Shown: positions 51,001-54,000 of the stretch, piece after piece
Layout of the letters: each line of letters opens with the position of its first letter
How positions within the stretch are numbered: position 1 is the stretch's first letter
From: a virus
Lineage: Duplodnaviria; Heunggongvirae; Uroviricota; Caudoviricetes
IMG/VR virus record: IMGVR_UViG_2718218100_000001
Strand: one strand, 5' to 3'
Length of the DNA stretch: 64,000 nt
Program-made: the position numbers

Positions 51001-54000
51001 CTTCGTACCTTAAGCAAGTAGAAGGTTAGCGCCTCTCTGTAAAAGGAGTCAAGCGCTATGTCGCAAAAATCGCTTATCACCGTCACAATTTGCATGACGG
51101 TTATCTTCACCATCTGGATGTTGCACGGTTCACTGTGTGAGTTCCGGCTGAATTTGTGGGGAGCGGAGTTTGCGGCGTTCTTACAGTGTAAGCAGTAGGA
51201 AAACCGCGACGGGGACGAGAGTCCCCGTCAACTGGTTGCTGAGGTTCAGCCGATATGGCACCCGTTTCAGGTGAGAGAATGAACGATAAAATTCTCTGGT
51301 ATATGCAGCGTGTTGTGAGAAATTCCCGCAACCCTGAATTTATGAATGAAGTTAAAGACGCCTGCCTTAAAAAGCAGGCGTTTTGTTTTGAGGCACCTGA
51401 TGGCTTTTTGGTGCTGCGTTCTGTGCTCAGTGCTGATGGTATCCCTTATGTTCTGGTGTTGCTGGGCGTGTGTACGGGGAGTAACAGCGTTGAGCGTTAC
51501 CTGCCGGAGGTGAAGACATTAACCCATCTGGCTGGCGGACGCTGGGCTGAGTTCCATACGGCAAGGCGGGGATTTATCCGGCTGGGAAAACGACTGGGCT
51601 TTGAGCGAATGCCGGATGATGAGGATGGCTTCATGGTGTTCAGGATAGCGGTCTGACTGCTACAGTTTTCATCATTGTGTTTAAACCAACATTGTAATTC
51701 ACATTCTGACCCTGCTCCGGCAGGGTTTTTTGTTATCCAGGGGGCCATTATGGGTGGAAGTAAAGGCGGTGGTGATACCAAAGTAAAACCAACAGCAGCG
51801 CAAATAGCACAGGAAGAAGTGGCCTGGAAAGGGTGGCAGGATTACAAAAATATCCTCCGCCCGGCTGAAGATAACTTCATGGAAAAGGTCGATGACCTGA
51901 ACAGTGAGCAGCAGTACGACAATATTGCTGGCACCACAAATCTGGGGTATCAGAAACAGTTTGGCGAAGCACGGAAGGAGCTTGCGGGTAATCTTGCTCA
52001 GTCCGGCGTTGACCCATCCAGTGGTCGTTTTAATGCGGTAATGAATGCGAACCAGAGTGACCAGGTAACCGGGCAGATTGACACAACCACACGGGGGCAG
52101 GTATCGCAGGCAGATAAGTATGTTGCCGGGCTACAGGATGTTGCTGCTCTCGGTTCTGGTCAGAAGGCGGATGCGTTACAGAGTTTTAACTCTCTGGCAG
52201 ACAGCAGTCTGGCAAAAGCTAAATCGGATGCACAGGCGGCGTTTACGAAACAGCAGGGGCGAGCCTCTCTTGTTGGCGCTGGTCTGGGTGCGGCAGGTGC
52301 ATATGCGATGCATAAGGCTGGCGGTAGCGGAGGAAGTGGCGGTGCTAAAACACCTGGCACCGGCGCTAATGCCATTCAGCATCAGGCTCAGAACTGGAGA
52401 CTGTGATTATGGAGTACGGTAAATACGAAACACTTGCAAGATACGGTTATACCGGAGCAGCCCGCCCTCAGGGGGACTGGCAGACATCCGCAGCGCTGAC
52501 CCGCCAGCAATACGACGACTGGCGCACCAGATATTTACCCCGTGTAGCAAGGCTGGCTGACCTTGGGGAGAACAACAGTCTGATGAATGCACAGCTTGCA
52601 CGGGTGGGAGGCCTTGCCACTTCCAGTCTCCGTACAGCGCAGATGGCGCAGGATAACCAGATGGCGAGATACGGGGTAAACCGCCCGGATAATCCCGACA
52701 GTAATACGCTGGGGTTACGTAATGCCCTGGCAATTGCTGGCGCGAAAAATGGTATCCGTGAAGCCGAACAGGATCGCCAGATGAATATTCTGACGGGGGC
52801 TTCTGCACCGGCAAGACAGAAACTGAGTGTTGGCGGCCAACTGGTGGCAGCGTAAGGGGGCAATATGGGATACGGTTTACTGGATATTGCAAATCAGTCG
52901 CGGCGTGAGGCATTACAGGGAATAAGTGACGCAGACAGACGACGTGAAGAAATTGAGGCTGCGAACAAACAGATGGCGGCGCAACAGAAAGCGCAGAACA
53001 AGCAGAATATCGGTACGGGCATTGGTACGGGGGTGGCTATTGGCGCATCCGTTGGTGGTCCTGTTGGTGCTGTTGCTGGAGCAGTAATTGGCGGCATTGC
53101 TGGTTCTTTGTTTTAAGGAGTGGTGAATGAGCGGATTTGCACAGGGGGTACTTGCCGGATTCAGCACCGTTGACCAGGCAATGACCCGTCGTAAGGAGCT
53201 TGGTCTGCGTGAAGCACAGCTTGCCCGGCAACAGAAAAATAACGAGCGCGATTTTGAGTTTGCGCAGTCTCAGTTTGAACATAATAAAAACGTTGATCAG
53301 CGGAACTTTGATTACAGAGCCAAAGTTGACGACCGTAATTATGCACTGAAGGAAAGGGAGTTTAACGCTAACCAGAATTACCGGAATGCGTCGCTGGGGA
53401 TGGAACAGCAACGACTCCAGTTGCAGAAATACAACCAGCGACGGCTTGAGTATAACGATATGATTGCCCATAGCCAGCCACTAATGGAAGCGCTTGGAAA
53501 AGCAATTGAGGCTGGCGATCAGGAGGCTGCAACGCGTCTGTTCGGGCAGCTGCCAAAGGGACATCCATTAATTCTTATGTCAAACGAAGGCTATGCAGCG
53601 AAAGCGGGTCAGGCCGTGATCAACCTGCAAAAAATCTTTGGTGATAAGCCGGACATGGCGATCGATTCGCTGAATACCCCGGAAAATCTCGATGTGCTTT
53701 CCGGCGTGTTTGCCCCGGAACTACAACAGCGTATTGGCATGCCTGATTCAACCGGGGAAAAAACGATAAAAGAGGCCAGGATTGGCAGTATCGTACCAGC
53801 GCAGCAGGAAGGGTACGTACTTATTGGCCTTGATCTCACATACAGCGATGGCTCCACCGCGCATAAACCTGTAACAGAATACGGCAGTGCGCACCCTGAT
53901 GATCAAACCGTGCTGGCGATACCCGTTGATAAGGCTATCGCTCAGGTCAGGGATCGCAGCAAATTTGCAGAGATATCGAAAAATTATGGTTATTTTATGC

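What the first reader, a model, noticed from the sequence alone, without database searches (positions are those of the whole stretch)
51058..51198. Unannotated hok-like type I toxin ORF between lom and the distal module
A 46-codon ORF with a strong AAGGAG RBS encodes a peptide with one hydrophobic helix followed by HGSLCEFR...AEFAAF, close to the Hok/Gef signature. It falls below the 60-aa ORF-track cutoff. If functional it implies an antisense Sok-like RNA and a fold-back mRNA leader in 50880-51200, which would be a phage-borne addiction or abortive-infection module in the late region.
Basis: partly seen in the sequence, partly recalled or inferred. Interest (0 to 1): 0.65.

Follow-up and report, generated by a model that had tools for sequence, protein, structure and literature searches.

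The report
Hok/Sok toxin cassette beside lom
The 46-codon gene just after lom in this Shiga-toxin prophage is a genuine, already catalogued Hok-family membrane toxin with a full antisense-RNA control cassette. Its antisense RNA is the molecule published as the phage "microRNA" 24B_1, in papers that never mention the toxin.

Summary
The ORF at 51058-51198 is real and belongs to the Hok/Gef family (Pfam 33.2 bits, cut-off 22).

- **Cassette.** It lies in a self-contained 375-bp hok/sok-type cassette, 50889-51263. The cassette recurs full-length in about 1,750 of 5,426 complete E. coli genomes, in different mobile-element contexts.
- **RNA elements.** I find a conserved 5'/3' fold-back (tac/fbi), a hairpin that sequesters the hok ribosome-binding site, a 3' stem-loop with compensatory changes, and a conserved antisense promoter. 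That promoter drives a Sok-like RNA of about 60 nt.
- **Already annotated.** RefSeq calls the ORF "Hok/Gef family protein" (WP_000078907.1). A 2025-26 preprint lists the identical peptide (72_1589) among constructs tested for toxicity and does not name it among the three non-toxic ones.
- **Distinct from hokW-sokW.** The published hokW-sokW locus of 933W/Sp5 is different, and this prophage lacks it.
- **Atypical mok.** The mok frame is truncated and does not overlap hok.
- **The new point.** The 20-nt "microRNA-size" 24B_1 of phage Φ24B maps exactly into the Sok-like terminator hairpin. Its predicted promoter is the sok promoter. The Δ24B_1 deletion removes the hok promoter, the leader and sok. 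The three 24B_1 papers I searched never mention hok.

Verdict: a known kind of system. The interest is moderate and comes from this reinterpretation.

The parts
50849..50873 (+). lom terminator (8-bp stem plus T run), immediately upstream of the cassette
   Evidence: Terminator scan. lom itself is 50091-50825, Pfam Ail_Lom.
50874..50902 (+). Putative hok promoter: -35 TTGCCC (50874-79), 17-nt spacer, -10 TAAATT (50897-902). The transcript would start about 50909.
   Evidence: Read from the sequence. The -10 position keeps TA...T in 17 of 19 aligned variants (TAAATT, TAGATT, TAGAAT, TACATT, TACAGT, TAGAGT), and TTG at the -35 position is kept in most. It scores 8 of 12 and falls below the consensus scan threshold. 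Inferred, not shown.
50909..51263 (+). Inferred full-length hok mRNA, about 355 nt
   Evidence: Homology to unrelated contexts (P2-like phages, lambda-like prophages, an island, a plasmid) starts at 50889 and stops at 51263. MFE is -155.4 kcal/mol with z -6.5, and the 5' end pairs with the 3' end. The ends are inferred; no transcript mapping was done.
50909..50924 (+). tac-like 5' element, GGGTGCCTTTCGGCTG
   Evidence: GGGUG is invariant in 18 variants. It pairs with 51247-51263 in the MFE. The 5'/3' duplex is -24 to -36 kcal/mol in all 18 variants, z -3.4 to -6.3 against shuffles.
51247..51263 (+). fbi-like 3' element, CAGCCGATATGGCACCC
   Evidence: It is complementary to tac. The GGCACC core is conserved while the flanking part covaries with the 5' end, for example CGGCUG/CAGCCG against CGACC/GGUCG.
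50955..51029 (+). Leader ORF and likely mok remnant: GTG plus 23 codons, then TAG at 51027-29. An alternative ATG at 50953 gives 8 codons ending at 50979.
   Evidence: The start region GATGTGG with GAAGG upstream is conserved in most variants. From the same ATG a long hok-overlapping frame of 61-79 codons exists only in the ST131-P2 and E. albertii variants.
51000..51026 (+). Sok-target (sokT-like) hairpin with loop CUUAAGCAA
   Evidence: Local folds give a weak hairpin of -2 to -8 kcal/mol with differing arm sequences. A YUNR motif is in the loop in 16 of 18 variants, but it is a low-information motif. It aligns with the target hairpin of Rfam RF01794.
51023..51052 (-). Antisense (sok) promoter: -35 TTGACT (51052..51047), 18-nt spacer, -10 TAACCT (51028..51023)
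   Evidence: CTTG...GCGCTAACCT is conserved in 16 of 18 variants, with one-base departures in the other two. It is the same promoter that BPROM predicted as p24B_1 (-35 TTGACT, -10 CGCTAACCT) in PMC4426718. hokW/sokW has the same TAACCT, 7 nt upstream of the annotated sokW 5' end. It falls below the simple consensus scan threshold.
50958..51016 (-). Sok-like antitoxin RNA, about 59 nt: a single-stranded 5' tail of about 20 nt, then a 16-bp hairpin, then UUUC
   Evidence: Fold is -32.5 kcal/mol, z -5.25. The hairpin is -20 to -27 kcal/mol on the minus strand against -12 to -19 on the plus strand in all 18 variants, because G.U pairs become C-A mismatches. The ends are inferred. The published 81-nt 'precursor' construct corresponds to 51014..50934.
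50965..50984 (-). Exact match to the published 20-nt '24B_1' RNA, TAACGTTAAGTTGACTCGGG. It covers the loop and 3' arm of the Sok-like hairpin.
   Evidence: One exact hit in the window. The sequence comes from PMC4426718. It sits at the same position in Φ24B, HM208303 45692-45711.
51029..51056 (+). Hairpin sequestering the hok Shine-Dalgarno: CUCU pairs with GGAG, closed by GCGC/GCGC
   Evidence: Present in the MFE and in the RNAalifold consensus. 96-98% of cells pair across 18 variants (helices 2 and 3). Changes are one-sided only, so conservation is the support, not covariation.
51043..51048 (+). hok Shine-Dalgarno, AAGGAG
   Evidence: GGAG is conserved in the variants.
51058..51198 (+). hok-family toxin gene, 46 codons plus stop
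   Evidence: RefSeq WP_000078907.1 'Hok/Gef family protein'. The identical peptide is construct 72_1589 of the toxicity screen.
51059..51177 (+). Long-range helix pairing the start-codon region (51059-66, UGUCGCAA) with 51170-77 (UUGCGGCG)
   Evidence: RNAalifold. 100% of cells pair in 18 variants, with one-sided changes only (helix 4).
51202..51237 (+). 3' stem-loop of the hok mRNA, the likely stop for 3' trimming
   Evidence: Four pairs carry compensatory double changes, 21 cells in all, and 99% of cells pair (helix 6). Read on the minus strand it scores as a terminator.
50858..51046 (.). The 189 nt removed in the published Φ24B Δ24B_1 mutant
   Evidence: The published recombineering arms map to 50807-50857 and 51047-51097 with no mismatches. 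The deletion takes half of the lom terminator, the hok promoter, the whole leader, the sok gene with its -10, and most of the hok SD. The hok CDS is left in place.

Best explanation
This is a complete hok/sok-type type I toxin-antitoxin cassette (about 50874-51263) carried as a moron downstream of lom. I propose the following mechanism.

1. A modest promoter makes an mRNA of about 355 nt. Its 5' end (tac) pairs with its 3' end (fbi).
2. The hok ribosome-binding site is locked in a local hairpin, and the start-codon region is paired with a downstream segment. The full-length mRNA is therefore translationally silent.
3. Slow 3' trimming back to the 3' stem-loop would free the 5' end and make the mRNA competent for translation.
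4. An antisense promoter inside the leader makes an unstable Sok-like RNA of about 60 nt. It pairs with leader positions about +50 to +107, immediately downstream of the start of a short leader ORF.
5. That pairing blocks leader translation and probably triggers duplex cleavage.
6. When Sok is no longer replenished, ribosomes translate the leader ORF. This could follow loss of the prophage, transcription shut-off by an infecting phage, or events after induction.
7. The ribosomes stop at TAG 51027-29, at the foot of the SD hairpin. This opens the hairpin and lets the 46-residue Hok be made.
8. Hok inserts into the inner membrane and collapses membrane potential and ATP.

What is shown and what is inferred:
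- Shown here: the family membership, the structures and their conservation, and the promoter conservation.
- Shown by others: a minus-strand RNA from this site, and toxicity of the identical peptide.
- Inferred from the plasmid R1 paradigm: the order of events, the 3' processing and the coupling step.

The published 24B_1 'microRNA' and its '80-nt precursor' are this Sok-like RNA.
For: - **Family.** Pfam HOK_GEF is above its gathering score. PHROG 251 gives E 2.8e-24. The nearest NCBIfam model is HokA. A 46-residue clade is conserved, with invariant C27 and C44 and a nearly invariant GSLCE motif.
- **Autonomous cassette.** Homology runs exactly 50889-51263 in unrelated contexts. Full-length copies occur in 1,742 of 5,426 complete E. 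coli genomes.
- **Fold-back.** It is present in the MFE, z -6.5, and as a 5'/3' duplex of -24 to -36 kcal/mol in all 18 variants.
- **Other helices.** 98.2% of cells pair against 39-49% when the partners are slid. The 3' stem-loop has four compensatory pairs.
- **Sok-like RNA.** The promoter is conserved. The hairpin is favoured on the minus strand in every variant. The single-sequence fold has z -5.25.
- **Homology to a proven system.** Rfam RF01794 aligns the leader end to end, E 7e-6. The same model hits hokW at 113.5 bits, and hokW has the same TAACCT -10 in the same place. hokW-sokW is experimentally a type I TA (PMC8621323).
- **Experiments by others.** 2,223 reads of a 20-nt minus-strand RNA map to 50965-50984. 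Hfq binds the 81-nt precursor with Kd 25 nM, and sokW is partly Hfq-dependent. The identical peptide is in the toxicity screen and is not among the three non-toxic constructs.
Against: - No canonical mok. The hok frame is closed by TAA at 51040, and no start codon lies in the region that Sok's 5' tail covers. The leader ORF ends 29 nt before the hok ATG. Its length varies among variants and it is absent in some. The proposed coupling step is therefore my inference and could be wrong.
- Neither promoter passes the simple sigma-70 consensus scan.
- The Rfam sok score is below its gathering threshold, 35.6 against 59.
- Apart from the 3' stem-loop, most helices are conserved rather than covarying. 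They overlap coding sequence, so conservation alone is weak proof.
- Transcript ends, 3' processing and native-locus toxicity were not measured.
- RT-PCR in Φ24B did not detect the antisense transcript before induction. A constitutive antitoxin would be expected in lysogens.
- Some relatives are decayed, for example the frameshift in Stx2_6804.
Confidence: 0.85

Rival explanations
1. The published view. The minus-strand transcript is the precursor of a microRNA-like, trans-acting 20-nt regulator (24B_1). It controls d_ant, sdhB and through them lysogeny and host metabolism. The neighbouring small ORF is irrelevant to those phenotypes.
For: PMC4426718 and PMC10732415 report the following.
- A single abundant 20-nt species.
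- Phenotypes of the 189-nt deletion that are complemented in trans.
- Opposite effects on overproduction.
- Proposed pairing with sdhB and d_ant mRNAs.

Sok-type RNAs could in principle also have trans targets.
Against: - The 20-mer is the loop and 3' arm of a terminator hairpin in an RNA whose promoter, position, strand and shape are those of Sok.
- The deletion also removes the hok promoter, the leader, part of the SD and half of the lom terminator. The phenotypes therefore cannot be assigned to the 20-mer.
- By the published primers the complementing plasmid carries the entire hok cassette, 50746-51311.
- An ATP drop is what a leaky Hok-type toxin is known to cause in this family.
- None of the three 24B_1 papers I searched mentions hok, sok or an antitoxin.
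Confidence: 0.2
2. The cassette is an evolutionary remnant. With mok truncated, Hok is never translated from its native mRNA. The locus is neutral cargo, or only the antisense RNA retains a function.
For: - The canonical overlapping mok frame is lost in the window copy, and the leader ORF is variable or absent in some relatives.
- Frameshifted copies exist.
- From general knowledge, several chromosomal hok loci of E. coli K-12 are inactivated (Pedersen and Gerdes 1999). I did not check this here.
Against: - The 46-codon frame, its SD, the SD-sequestering hairpin, tac/fbi and the sok promoter are all retained across E. coli, E. albertii, Salmonella and Citrobacter at 74-96% DNA identity. That is unexpected for a dead locus.
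- The peptide itself is toxic when expressed.
- The leader ORF stops exactly at the foot of the SD hairpin in the window and several relatives, and in Citrobacter it overlaps the hok ATG (TGATG).
Confidence: 0.15
3. It is the known hokW-sokW locus of 933W/Sp5.
For: It has the same phage family, the same protein family and the same cassette architecture. PHROGs labels it 'MokW-like'.
Against: - hokW lies at 933W 58460-58786 on the other strand, about 13 kb away.
- HokW is 51 residues and HokD-like, with only 37% identity over 35 residues.
- The hokW primer sequence is absent from the window, and tblastn finds one hok-like ORF only.
- This prophage ends at attR right after the 2,807-residue ORF, so it lacks the hokW region.
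Confidence: 0.01

Closest known systems
hok/sok (parB) of plasmid R1, the paradigm type I toxin-antitoxin system
   Same: - A small Hok/Gef-family membrane toxin.
- A highly structured mRNA of about 350-400 nt with 5'/3' fold-back (tac/fbi).
- A sequestered ribosome-binding site.
- A 3' stem-loop.
- A short cis-antisense RNA with its own promoter inside the leader, a single-stranded 5' tail and a terminator hairpin.
- A target hairpin with a YUNR loop.
   Different: - The toxin is 46 rather than 52 residues and falls in a different 60%-identity cluster: cluster 72 against cluster 47 of the 2025-26 catalogue.
- In the window copy no mok frame overlaps hok.
- The only leader ORF starts upstream of the Sok target, not inside it, and stops 29 nt before hok.
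- The cassette is carried in prophage moron slots rather than on a plasmid.
- Post-segregational killing has not been tested.
hokW-sokW of phage 933W / Sakai prophage 5 (Takada et al. 2021, PMC8621323)
   Same: It is a Stx-phage-borne hok/sok cassette. It has the same TAACCT antisense -10 at the equivalent position, the same Rfam alignment register, and a partly Hfq-linked antisense RNA. Both occur together in 933W, Sp5 and Φ24B-like phages.
   Different: - A separate locus, about 13 kb away on the opposite strand.
- The toxin is HokD-like at 51 residues, 37% identical.
- hokW has an in-frame annotated mokW whose start is covered by Sok's 5' end.
- hokW scores 113.5 bits on RF01794 against 35.6 here.
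- hokW is absent from the prophage in this window.
HokA (chromosomal hok of E. coli K-12; NCBIfam NF007290)
   Same: It is the best-scoring curated family model (E 9e-10). The WM..SLCE core and the EFAAFL.C C-terminal motif are shared, the latter as I recall the HokA sequence.
   Different: The score of 38.4 bits is far below the equivalog cut-off of 89, so it is not a HokA orthologue. In the Hok catalogue HokA is cluster 93 and this peptide is cluster 72.
24B_1, the 'microRNA-size' sRNA of Stx phage Φ24B (PMC4426718, PMC10732415)
   Same: It is physically the same locus. The 20-mer matches 50965-50984 on the minus strand exactly. Its predicted promoter is the antisense promoter described here. 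The Φ24B sequence is 461/468 identical to the window across the region and encodes the identical Hok peptide.
   Different: The interpretation differs. It was published as a trans-acting microRNA-like regulator cut from an 80-nt precursor ending at a Rho-dependent site. I read it as a fragment of a cis-antisense Sok-type antitoxin RNA ending at its own hairpin. The hok ORF is not annotated in the Φ24B record and is not mentioned in those papers.

Membership tests
Hok/Gef toxin family (Pfam PF01848) | Match to the family HMM above the curated gathering score | tested here: met
   33.2 bits against 22, E 4e-8, covering residues 8-44 and profile positions 6-42 of 42.
Hok/Gef toxin family (Pfam PF01848) | Peptide of about 50 residues with one N-terminal transmembrane helix, followed by the conserved (S/D)LCE motif and a C-terminal Cys or Tyr | tested here: met
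   The hydrophobic stretch is residues about 5-22. GSLCE lies at 24-28, and C27 and C44 are invariant in 30 clade members. This agrees with the family logo, in which L30, C31 and E32 are conserved.
Hok/Gef toxin family (Pfam PF01848) | Toxic to E. coli when expressed | not testable with these tools
   From the literature: the identical peptide is construct LRP157 / 72_1589 in Table S2. The text states that only 19_179, 60_1482 and 69_1540 of the 45 constructs tested were non-toxic. This is a preprint, and I did not see the figure itself.
hok/sok-type type I toxin-antitoxin locus | Cis-encoded antisense RNA with its own promoter inside the toxin mRNA leader | tested here: met
   The -35/-10 elements are conserved in 16 of 18 variants, with one-base departures in the other two. 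A minus-strand-specific hairpin is followed by a U run. The position is homologous to sokW. A minus-strand RNA has been detected by others. The exact ends were not measured.
hok/sok-type type I toxin-antitoxin locus | 5'-3' fold-back of the full-length mRNA (tac/fbi) | tested here: met
   It is present in the MFE. The duplex is -24 to -36 kcal/mol with z -3.4 to -6.3 in all 18 variants, although their 3' sequences differ.
hok/sok-type type I toxin-antitoxin locus | mok reading frame overlapping hok, translationally coupled, with its initiation region covered by Sok | tested here: not met
   In the window the hok frame is closed at 51040. The leader ORFs are 8 codons (ATG 50953) or 24 codons (GTG 50955), ending 29 nt before hok. 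The long overlapping frame exists only in two relatives. Sok would abut the leader start (+50 against +45/+47) rather than cover it. Coupling by termination at the SD hairpin is my proposal and is untested.
hok/sok-type type I toxin-antitoxin locus | Target hairpin with a YUNR U-turn loop recognised by the antisense 5' tail | tested here: inconclusive
   Most variants have a weak hairpin of -2 to -8 kcal/mol, with YUNR in the loop in 16 of 18. The motif is short and expected often by chance.
hok/sok-type type I toxin-antitoxin locus | Activation by 3' exonucleolytic processing; differential RNA stability (stable mRNA, labile antisense) | not testable with these tools
   Only the anatomy is visible: a well-supported 3' stem-loop at 51202-51237 lies just upstream of fbi.
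Rfam RF01794 (sok) | Covariance-model score at or above the gathering score | tested here: not met
   35.6 bits against 59, E 7.4e-6, with a full-length 1-157 alignment. hokW scores 113.5. The model matches the hok-sense strand in both cases.
HokA equivalog (NCBIfam NF007290) | Score above the curated equivalog cut-off | tested here: not met
   38.4 bits against 89.
hokW-sokW locus of 933W/Sp5 | Same gene: sequence and position | tested here: not met
   Identity is 37% over 35 residues. The locus and strand in 933W differ. It is absent from the window.
24B_1 sRNA locus of Φ24B | Contains the 20-nt 24B_1 sequence and the p24B_1 promoter boxes between lom and the vb_24B_43 homologue | tested here: met
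   There is a single exact hit at 50965-50984 on the minus strand. TTGACT and CGCTAACCT are present. The deletion arms match with no mismatches.

The most novel reading that the evidence does not exclude
[quoted passage not shown] The phenotypes of the Δ24B_1 phage are less lysogeny, lower survival of infected cells, and faster induction with more progeny. The phenotypes of the '24B_1-overproducing' plasmid are more lysogeny and an ATP drop. Both sets would then come largely from deregulating or over-dosing a membrane-depolarising toxin, not from microRNA-like trans regulation.

That 24B_1 derives from the Sok-like RNA is close to certain from the sequence. The probability given here is for the stronger claim, that Hok accounts for most of the phenotypes.
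Probability: 0.45. Interest if true: 0.65.

Novelty: new member of a known kind. Interest (0 to 1): 0.5.

Why it matters
As a gene it is ordinary. Hok toxins are common in enterobacterial prophages. This peptide is already named in RefSeq and catalogued with a toxicity test.

Three things give it some weight:

1. **A second toxin locus in Stx phages.** Well-studied Shiga-toxin phages (933W, Sp5, Φ24B) carry two different Hok cassettes. The phage in this window carries only this one. Any study of hokW-sokW or of prophage stability and lysis timing in EHEC therefore has a second, uncontrolled toxin locus to consider.

2. **A reinterpretation of published work.** Three papers interpret an RNA from this exact spot as a eukaryote-like microRNA. 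The deletion and the complementation constructs they used also remove or add the hok promoter, leader and gene. Recognising the locus as hok/sok gives a simpler, directly testable explanation. A hok start-codon mutation in the Δ24B_1 background would test it.

3. **A natural test of the coupling model.** This abundant Hok subfamily has a truncated or variable mok. That makes it a natural case for asking how much of the R1 translational-coupling model is really required.

Tried and rejected
- **Chance ORF.** Rejected on the family scores and the conserved 46-residue clade.
- **Identity with published hokW.** I looked for the hokW start sequence in the window and found none. I then located hokW in 933W at 58.4-58.8 kb. 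The window's prophage ends before that region, and tblastn finds only one hok-like ORF.
- **Rfam at gathering thresholds.** It finds nothing at the locus. Only the E-value search shows the sub-threshold sok hit.
- **Simple promoter scan.** No hits. Promoter calls therefore rest on conservation and homology.
- **RNAalifold on a MAFFT alignment of the Sok-like RNAs.** It gave a poor consensus of 12 pairs and -9.8 kcal/mol, because of indels in the loop. I used per-sequence folds instead.
- **Codon-position test for coding selection.** Uninformative: 28, 17 and 32 variable sites at codon positions 1, 2 and 3, with more non-synonymous than synonymous codon differences. The hydrophobic helix tolerates exchange, and the 3' half is also constrained as RNA.
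- **The genome-contig scan.** It gave only 7 loci, some on contigs labelled Xanthomonas, Vagococcus or a Planococcaceae MAG. I treat those as probable enterobacterial contamination and give them no weight.
- **Not attempted.** I did not predict a protein structure. A 46-residue single helix would add nothing.
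Full report
**1. The observation**

The ORF exists as described. It starts at ATG 51058, stops at 51196-51198 and has 46 codons: MSQKSLITVTICMTVIFTIWMLHGSLCEFRLNLWGAEFAAFLQCKQ. AAGGAG lies 9 nt upstream. Several results show it is not a chance ORF:
- Pfam HOK_GEF scores 33.2 bits against a gathering score of 22, E 4e-8.
- PHROG 251 ("MokW-like host killing") gives E 2.8e-24.
- The nearest NCBIfam model is the HokA equivalog, but at 38 bits against a cut-off of 89 the ORF is not a HokA orthologue.
- A search of the large protein collection found 56 relatives. Of the 29 aligned with the query, 28 keep the 46-residue length (one has 47). They come from E. coli, Shigella and Salmonella at 59-85% identity. 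C27 and C44 are invariant, and GSLCE and GAEFAAFLQCK are nearly invariant.
- Residues about 5-22 form the single hydrophobic helix.

**2. Where the window comes from, and how the ORF is annotated**

The region 50830-51300 is 100% identical to 933W, VT2-Sakai/Sp5, PA2-type and many other Stx-converting phages, and to hundreds of STEC chromosomes. The right end of the window is attR beside a formate/nitrite-transporter-family gene, as in phage VT2phi_272. The window therefore holds a whole Stx prophage.

The ORF is unannotated in the original 933W record and in the Φ24B record. RefSeq/PGAP names it "Hok/Gef family protein", WP_000078907.1. Other phage records call it "small toxic polypeptide", "prophage host toxic membrane protein" or "MokW-like host killing". 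"Unannotated" is therefore a historical accident, not a discovery.

**3. It is not the published hokW-sokW**

Takada et al. 2021 (PMC8621323) showed that hokW-sokW of Sp5 is a working type I TA that helps phage release. Several results separate that locus from this one:
- Their HokW is 51 residues (MKQQKAM...DYESEK).
- In 933W it lies at 58460-58786 on the other strand, about 13 kb downstream.
- It is only 37% identical to the present peptide over 35 residues.
- It is absent from the window, because this prophage ends directly after the 2,807-residue ORF.

So 933W, Sp5 and Φ24B-type phages carry two different hok cassettes. The phage in this window carries only the lom-adjacent one.

**4. The cassette**

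I aligned the locus with copies from six kinds of context:
- other Stx phages;
- P2-like phages and prophages, after ogr and next to serS;
- lambda-like prophages, between gpJ and the tail-fibre gene;
- the ure island;
- an IncI1 plasmid;
- E. albertii, Salmonella and Citrobacter.

Homology begins at 50889 and ends at 51263, and the flanks are unrelated. The unit is therefore autonomous and about 375 bp long. A full-length copy is present in 1,742 of 5,426 complete E. coli genomes, with up to nine matching places per genome. It is rare on plasmids.

**5. RNA anatomy on the plus strand**

- The block opens with an invariant GGGTG(CC) at 50909. It is preceded by TTGCCC-17 nt-TAAATT, a plausible but sub-consensus promoter.
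- The block closes with GGCACC(C) at 51257-51263.
- The 358-nt stretch folds at -155.4 kcal/mol, z -6.5. In that fold positions 1-17 pair with the last 20 nt.
- Taken alone, the first 24 nt and last 34 nt form a duplex of -24 to -36 kcal/mol in all 18 distinct variants, z -3.4 to -6.3. This holds even though the 3' sequences differ, for example CGGCUG/CAGCCG against CGACC/GGUCG. This is the tac/fbi fold-back of the hok mRNA family.
- RNAalifold on the 18 variants gives 77 pairs, 13 of them with compensatory changes.
- I then counted a reduced structure: the tac/fbi core, the SD hairpin, a helix pairing the start-codon region with 51170-77, and the 3' stem-loop. In it 98.2% of cells pair, against 39-49% when partners are slid. 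The four clearly compensatory pairs all lie in the 3' stem-loop at 51202-51237. The other helices are conserved or vary on one side only.
- The hok SD is sequestered: CUCU pairs with GGAG inside a GCGC/GCGC-closed hairpin at 51029-51056.

**6. The antisense RNA**

On the minus strand, TTGACT (51052..51047), an 18-nt spacer and TAACCT (51028..51023) form a promoter. Its CTTG and GCGCTAACCT blocks are conserved in 16 of 18 variants, with one-base departures in the other two. hokW has the same TAACCT at the equivalent place, and the annotated sokW 5' end lies 7 nt downstream of it.

By analogy the RNA here starts at 51016 or 51015. It has a free 5' tail of about 20 nt, then a 16-bp hairpin followed by UUUC. 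Its fold is -32.5 kcal/mol, z -5.25.

The hairpin is strand-specific. It is -20 to -27 kcal/mol on the minus strand and -12 to -19 on the plus strand in every variant, because G.U pairs become C-A mismatches on the other strand.

Rfam's sok model aligns the leader end to end but below threshold, at 35.6 bits against 59. The same model scores 113.5 on hokW. In both cases it matches the hok-sense strand.

**7. mok**

This is the one defining feature that is not met in its usual form.
- The hok frame is closed by TAA at 51040.
- No start codon lies in the stretch that Sok's 5' tail covers. In hokW the mok ATG sits there.
- A conserved start region, GAAGG-N-ATGTGG at mRNA +45/+47, opens a frame that is 61-79 codons long and overlaps hok in the ST131-P2 and E. 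albertii variants.
- Indels in the hairpin loop truncate that frame elsewhere. In the window it is 8 codons from the ATG or 24 codons from the GTG at 50955.
- The 24-codon frame stops at TAG 51027-29, one base before the SD hairpin.
- In Citrobacter the leader stop overlaps the hok ATG (TGATG). Two variants lack the ORF altogether.

I propose that ribosomes terminating at the foot of the SD hairpin take over the coupling role. I also propose that Sok, whose duplex would begin 3-5 nt after the leader start codon, blocks that translation. This is inference.

**8. The link to 24B_1**

A literature search for hok and lom in Stx phages led to the Φ24B "microRNA-size" RNA. Nejman-Falenczyk et al. 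2015 (PMC4426718) reported 2,223 reads of TAACGTTAAGTTGACTCGGG, encoded between lom and vb_24B_43 on the minus strand. They predicted a promoter with -35 TTGACT and -10 CGCTAACCT, and an "80-nt precursor". These features map onto the cassette as follows:
- The 20-mer matches the window once, at 50965-50984 on the minus strand. That is the loop and 3' arm of the Sok-like hairpin.
- Their promoter is the antisense promoter I had derived independently.
- Their precursor primers delimit 51014..50934.
- Φ24B is 461/468 identical to the window across this region and encodes the identical Hok peptide, unannotated, at HM208303 45784-45924.
- Their Δ24B_1 recombineering arms map to 50807-50857 and 51047-51097, so the deletion is 50858-51046, exactly 189 nt. 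It removes half of the lom terminator, the hok promoter, the whole leader, the sok gene with its -10 and most of the hok SD. The hok CDS stays downstream of lom.
- The primers given for the complementing plasmid map to 50746-50765 and 51292-51311. That is a 566-bp insert containing the entire cassette, hok included. The 2023 paper describes the insert as "the 189-nt region", and this discrepancy needs resolving.
- The words hok, sok and antitoxin do not occur in the 2015 and 2023 papers. In the 2025 review hok and sok are absent, and "antitoxin" appears once, in the title of an unrelated reference.
- The only paper in the searchable library that mentions both 24B_1 and the hok/sok system is the same group's 2017 review, which treats them in separate sections.

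The reported phenotypes fit a toxin-antitoxin reading at least as well as a microRNA one. The deletion gives lower survival and less lysogeny. Supplying the region in trans reverses this. Cells carrying the plasmid or the prophage have lower ATP. Hfq binds the precursor. This is my interpretation and is not shown.

**9. Toxicity**

Escalera-Maurer et al. (bioRxiv 10.1101/2025.08.07.668861, version of 27 January 2026) catalogued 1,264 unique Hok peptides from RefSeq, in 61 clusters at 60% identity. They found hok enriched in prophages and tested 45 representatives.

Their Table S2 lists construct LRP157, "72_1589", from a high-abundance cluster. Its peptide is identical to this ORF. The text names only 19_179, 60_1482 and 69_1540 as non-toxic. 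HokW is their 35_712, in the HokD cluster.

They state that they did not analyse Sok, Mok or the mRNA elements.

**10. Verdict**

The locus is a genuine hok/sok-type type I toxin-antitoxin cassette. It is a member of an abundant, prophage-borne, 46-residue Hok subfamily that is already in the databases and has already been shown to be toxic.

It differs from the paradigm in its truncated, non-overlapping mok. Its biological role is not established; the candidates are prophage retention, exclusion of other phages, or help with lysis as shown for hokW.

The part that goes beyond current annotation is the description of its RNA components and the identification of its Sok-like RNA with the published 24B_1 precursor. 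That identification calls for a re-examination of how 24B_1 has been interpreted.

Noticed in passing
window 51255-51656 (+): The downstream ORF (933W L0129 / Φ24B vb_24B_43 homologue) is annotated from ATG 51255, which lies inside the hok fbi element (51247-51263). PHROG 610 aligns only from residue 9, so the real start is probably ATG 51279 (MNDKILW...). The protein matches no Pfam or NCBIfam family.
   Followed up: partly
window 50909-51071 (+); L004 1611-1785 (-): Rfam RF01794, named 'sok antitoxin', matches the strand that encodes hok, both here and at the experimentally studied hokW locus. It therefore appears to model the hok mRNA leader rather than the antisense RNA strand. It also misses this abundant subfamily at its gathering score.
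   Followed up: partly
window 62850-64000: The prophage ends just after the 2,807-residue ORF (54423-62846). What follows matches attR and a formate/nitrite-transporter-family gene, as in VT2phi_272. This phage type therefore lacks the 933W right-arm block that holds hokW-sokW.
   Followed up: partly
L012, L014, L025 (TL-2011c, Stx2 phage 86, E. coli SJ3), cassette region: These copies have a leader and 3' UTR nearly identical to the window. Their hok coding part, however, is a divergent allele (MPQKTIIVSILCITIL...FAAFLQCKQ). That points to recombination inside the cassette.
   Followed up: no
L013 (Stx2a phage Stx2_6804): An extra G in the GGGG run frameshifts the Hok C-terminus, giving 44 residues ending ...WGSGVCGVLTV. 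This is an apparently decayed copy in an otherwise intact cassette.
   Followed up: no
L018-L024: The same cassette occupies classic moron slots:
- after ogr at the end of P2-like prophages next to serS (ST131, UTI89);
- between gpJ and the tail-fibre gene in lambda-like prophages, the position where lom sits in lambda (from memory of the lambda map);
- in the ure island;
- on IncI1 plasmid pUMNK88_Hly.
   Followed up: partly
window 50746-51311: The primers published in 2015 for plasmid pUC18_24B1 delimit a 566-bp insert carrying the whole hok cassette. The 2023 paper says the plasmid bears 'the 189-nt region'. The two descriptions cannot both be right.
   Followed up: partly
window 25727-25940 (+), 11356-11414 (-), 5022-5093 (-): Rfam hits at gathering scores elsewhere in the window: STnc100 (195 bits), the lambda cIII thermoregulator (88 bits) and a tRNA.
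   Followed up: no
window 51207-51230 (-): Read on the minus strand, the hok 3' stem-loop is followed by a T run and scores as an intrinsic terminator. It could stop antisense transcription entering from downstream.
   Followed up: no
L005, L006, L008 (genome contigs): Near-identical copies of this enterobacterial cassette sit on contigs labelled Xanthomonas pisi, a Planococcaceae MAG and Vagococcus sp. They look like contamination of those assemblies.
   Followed up: no
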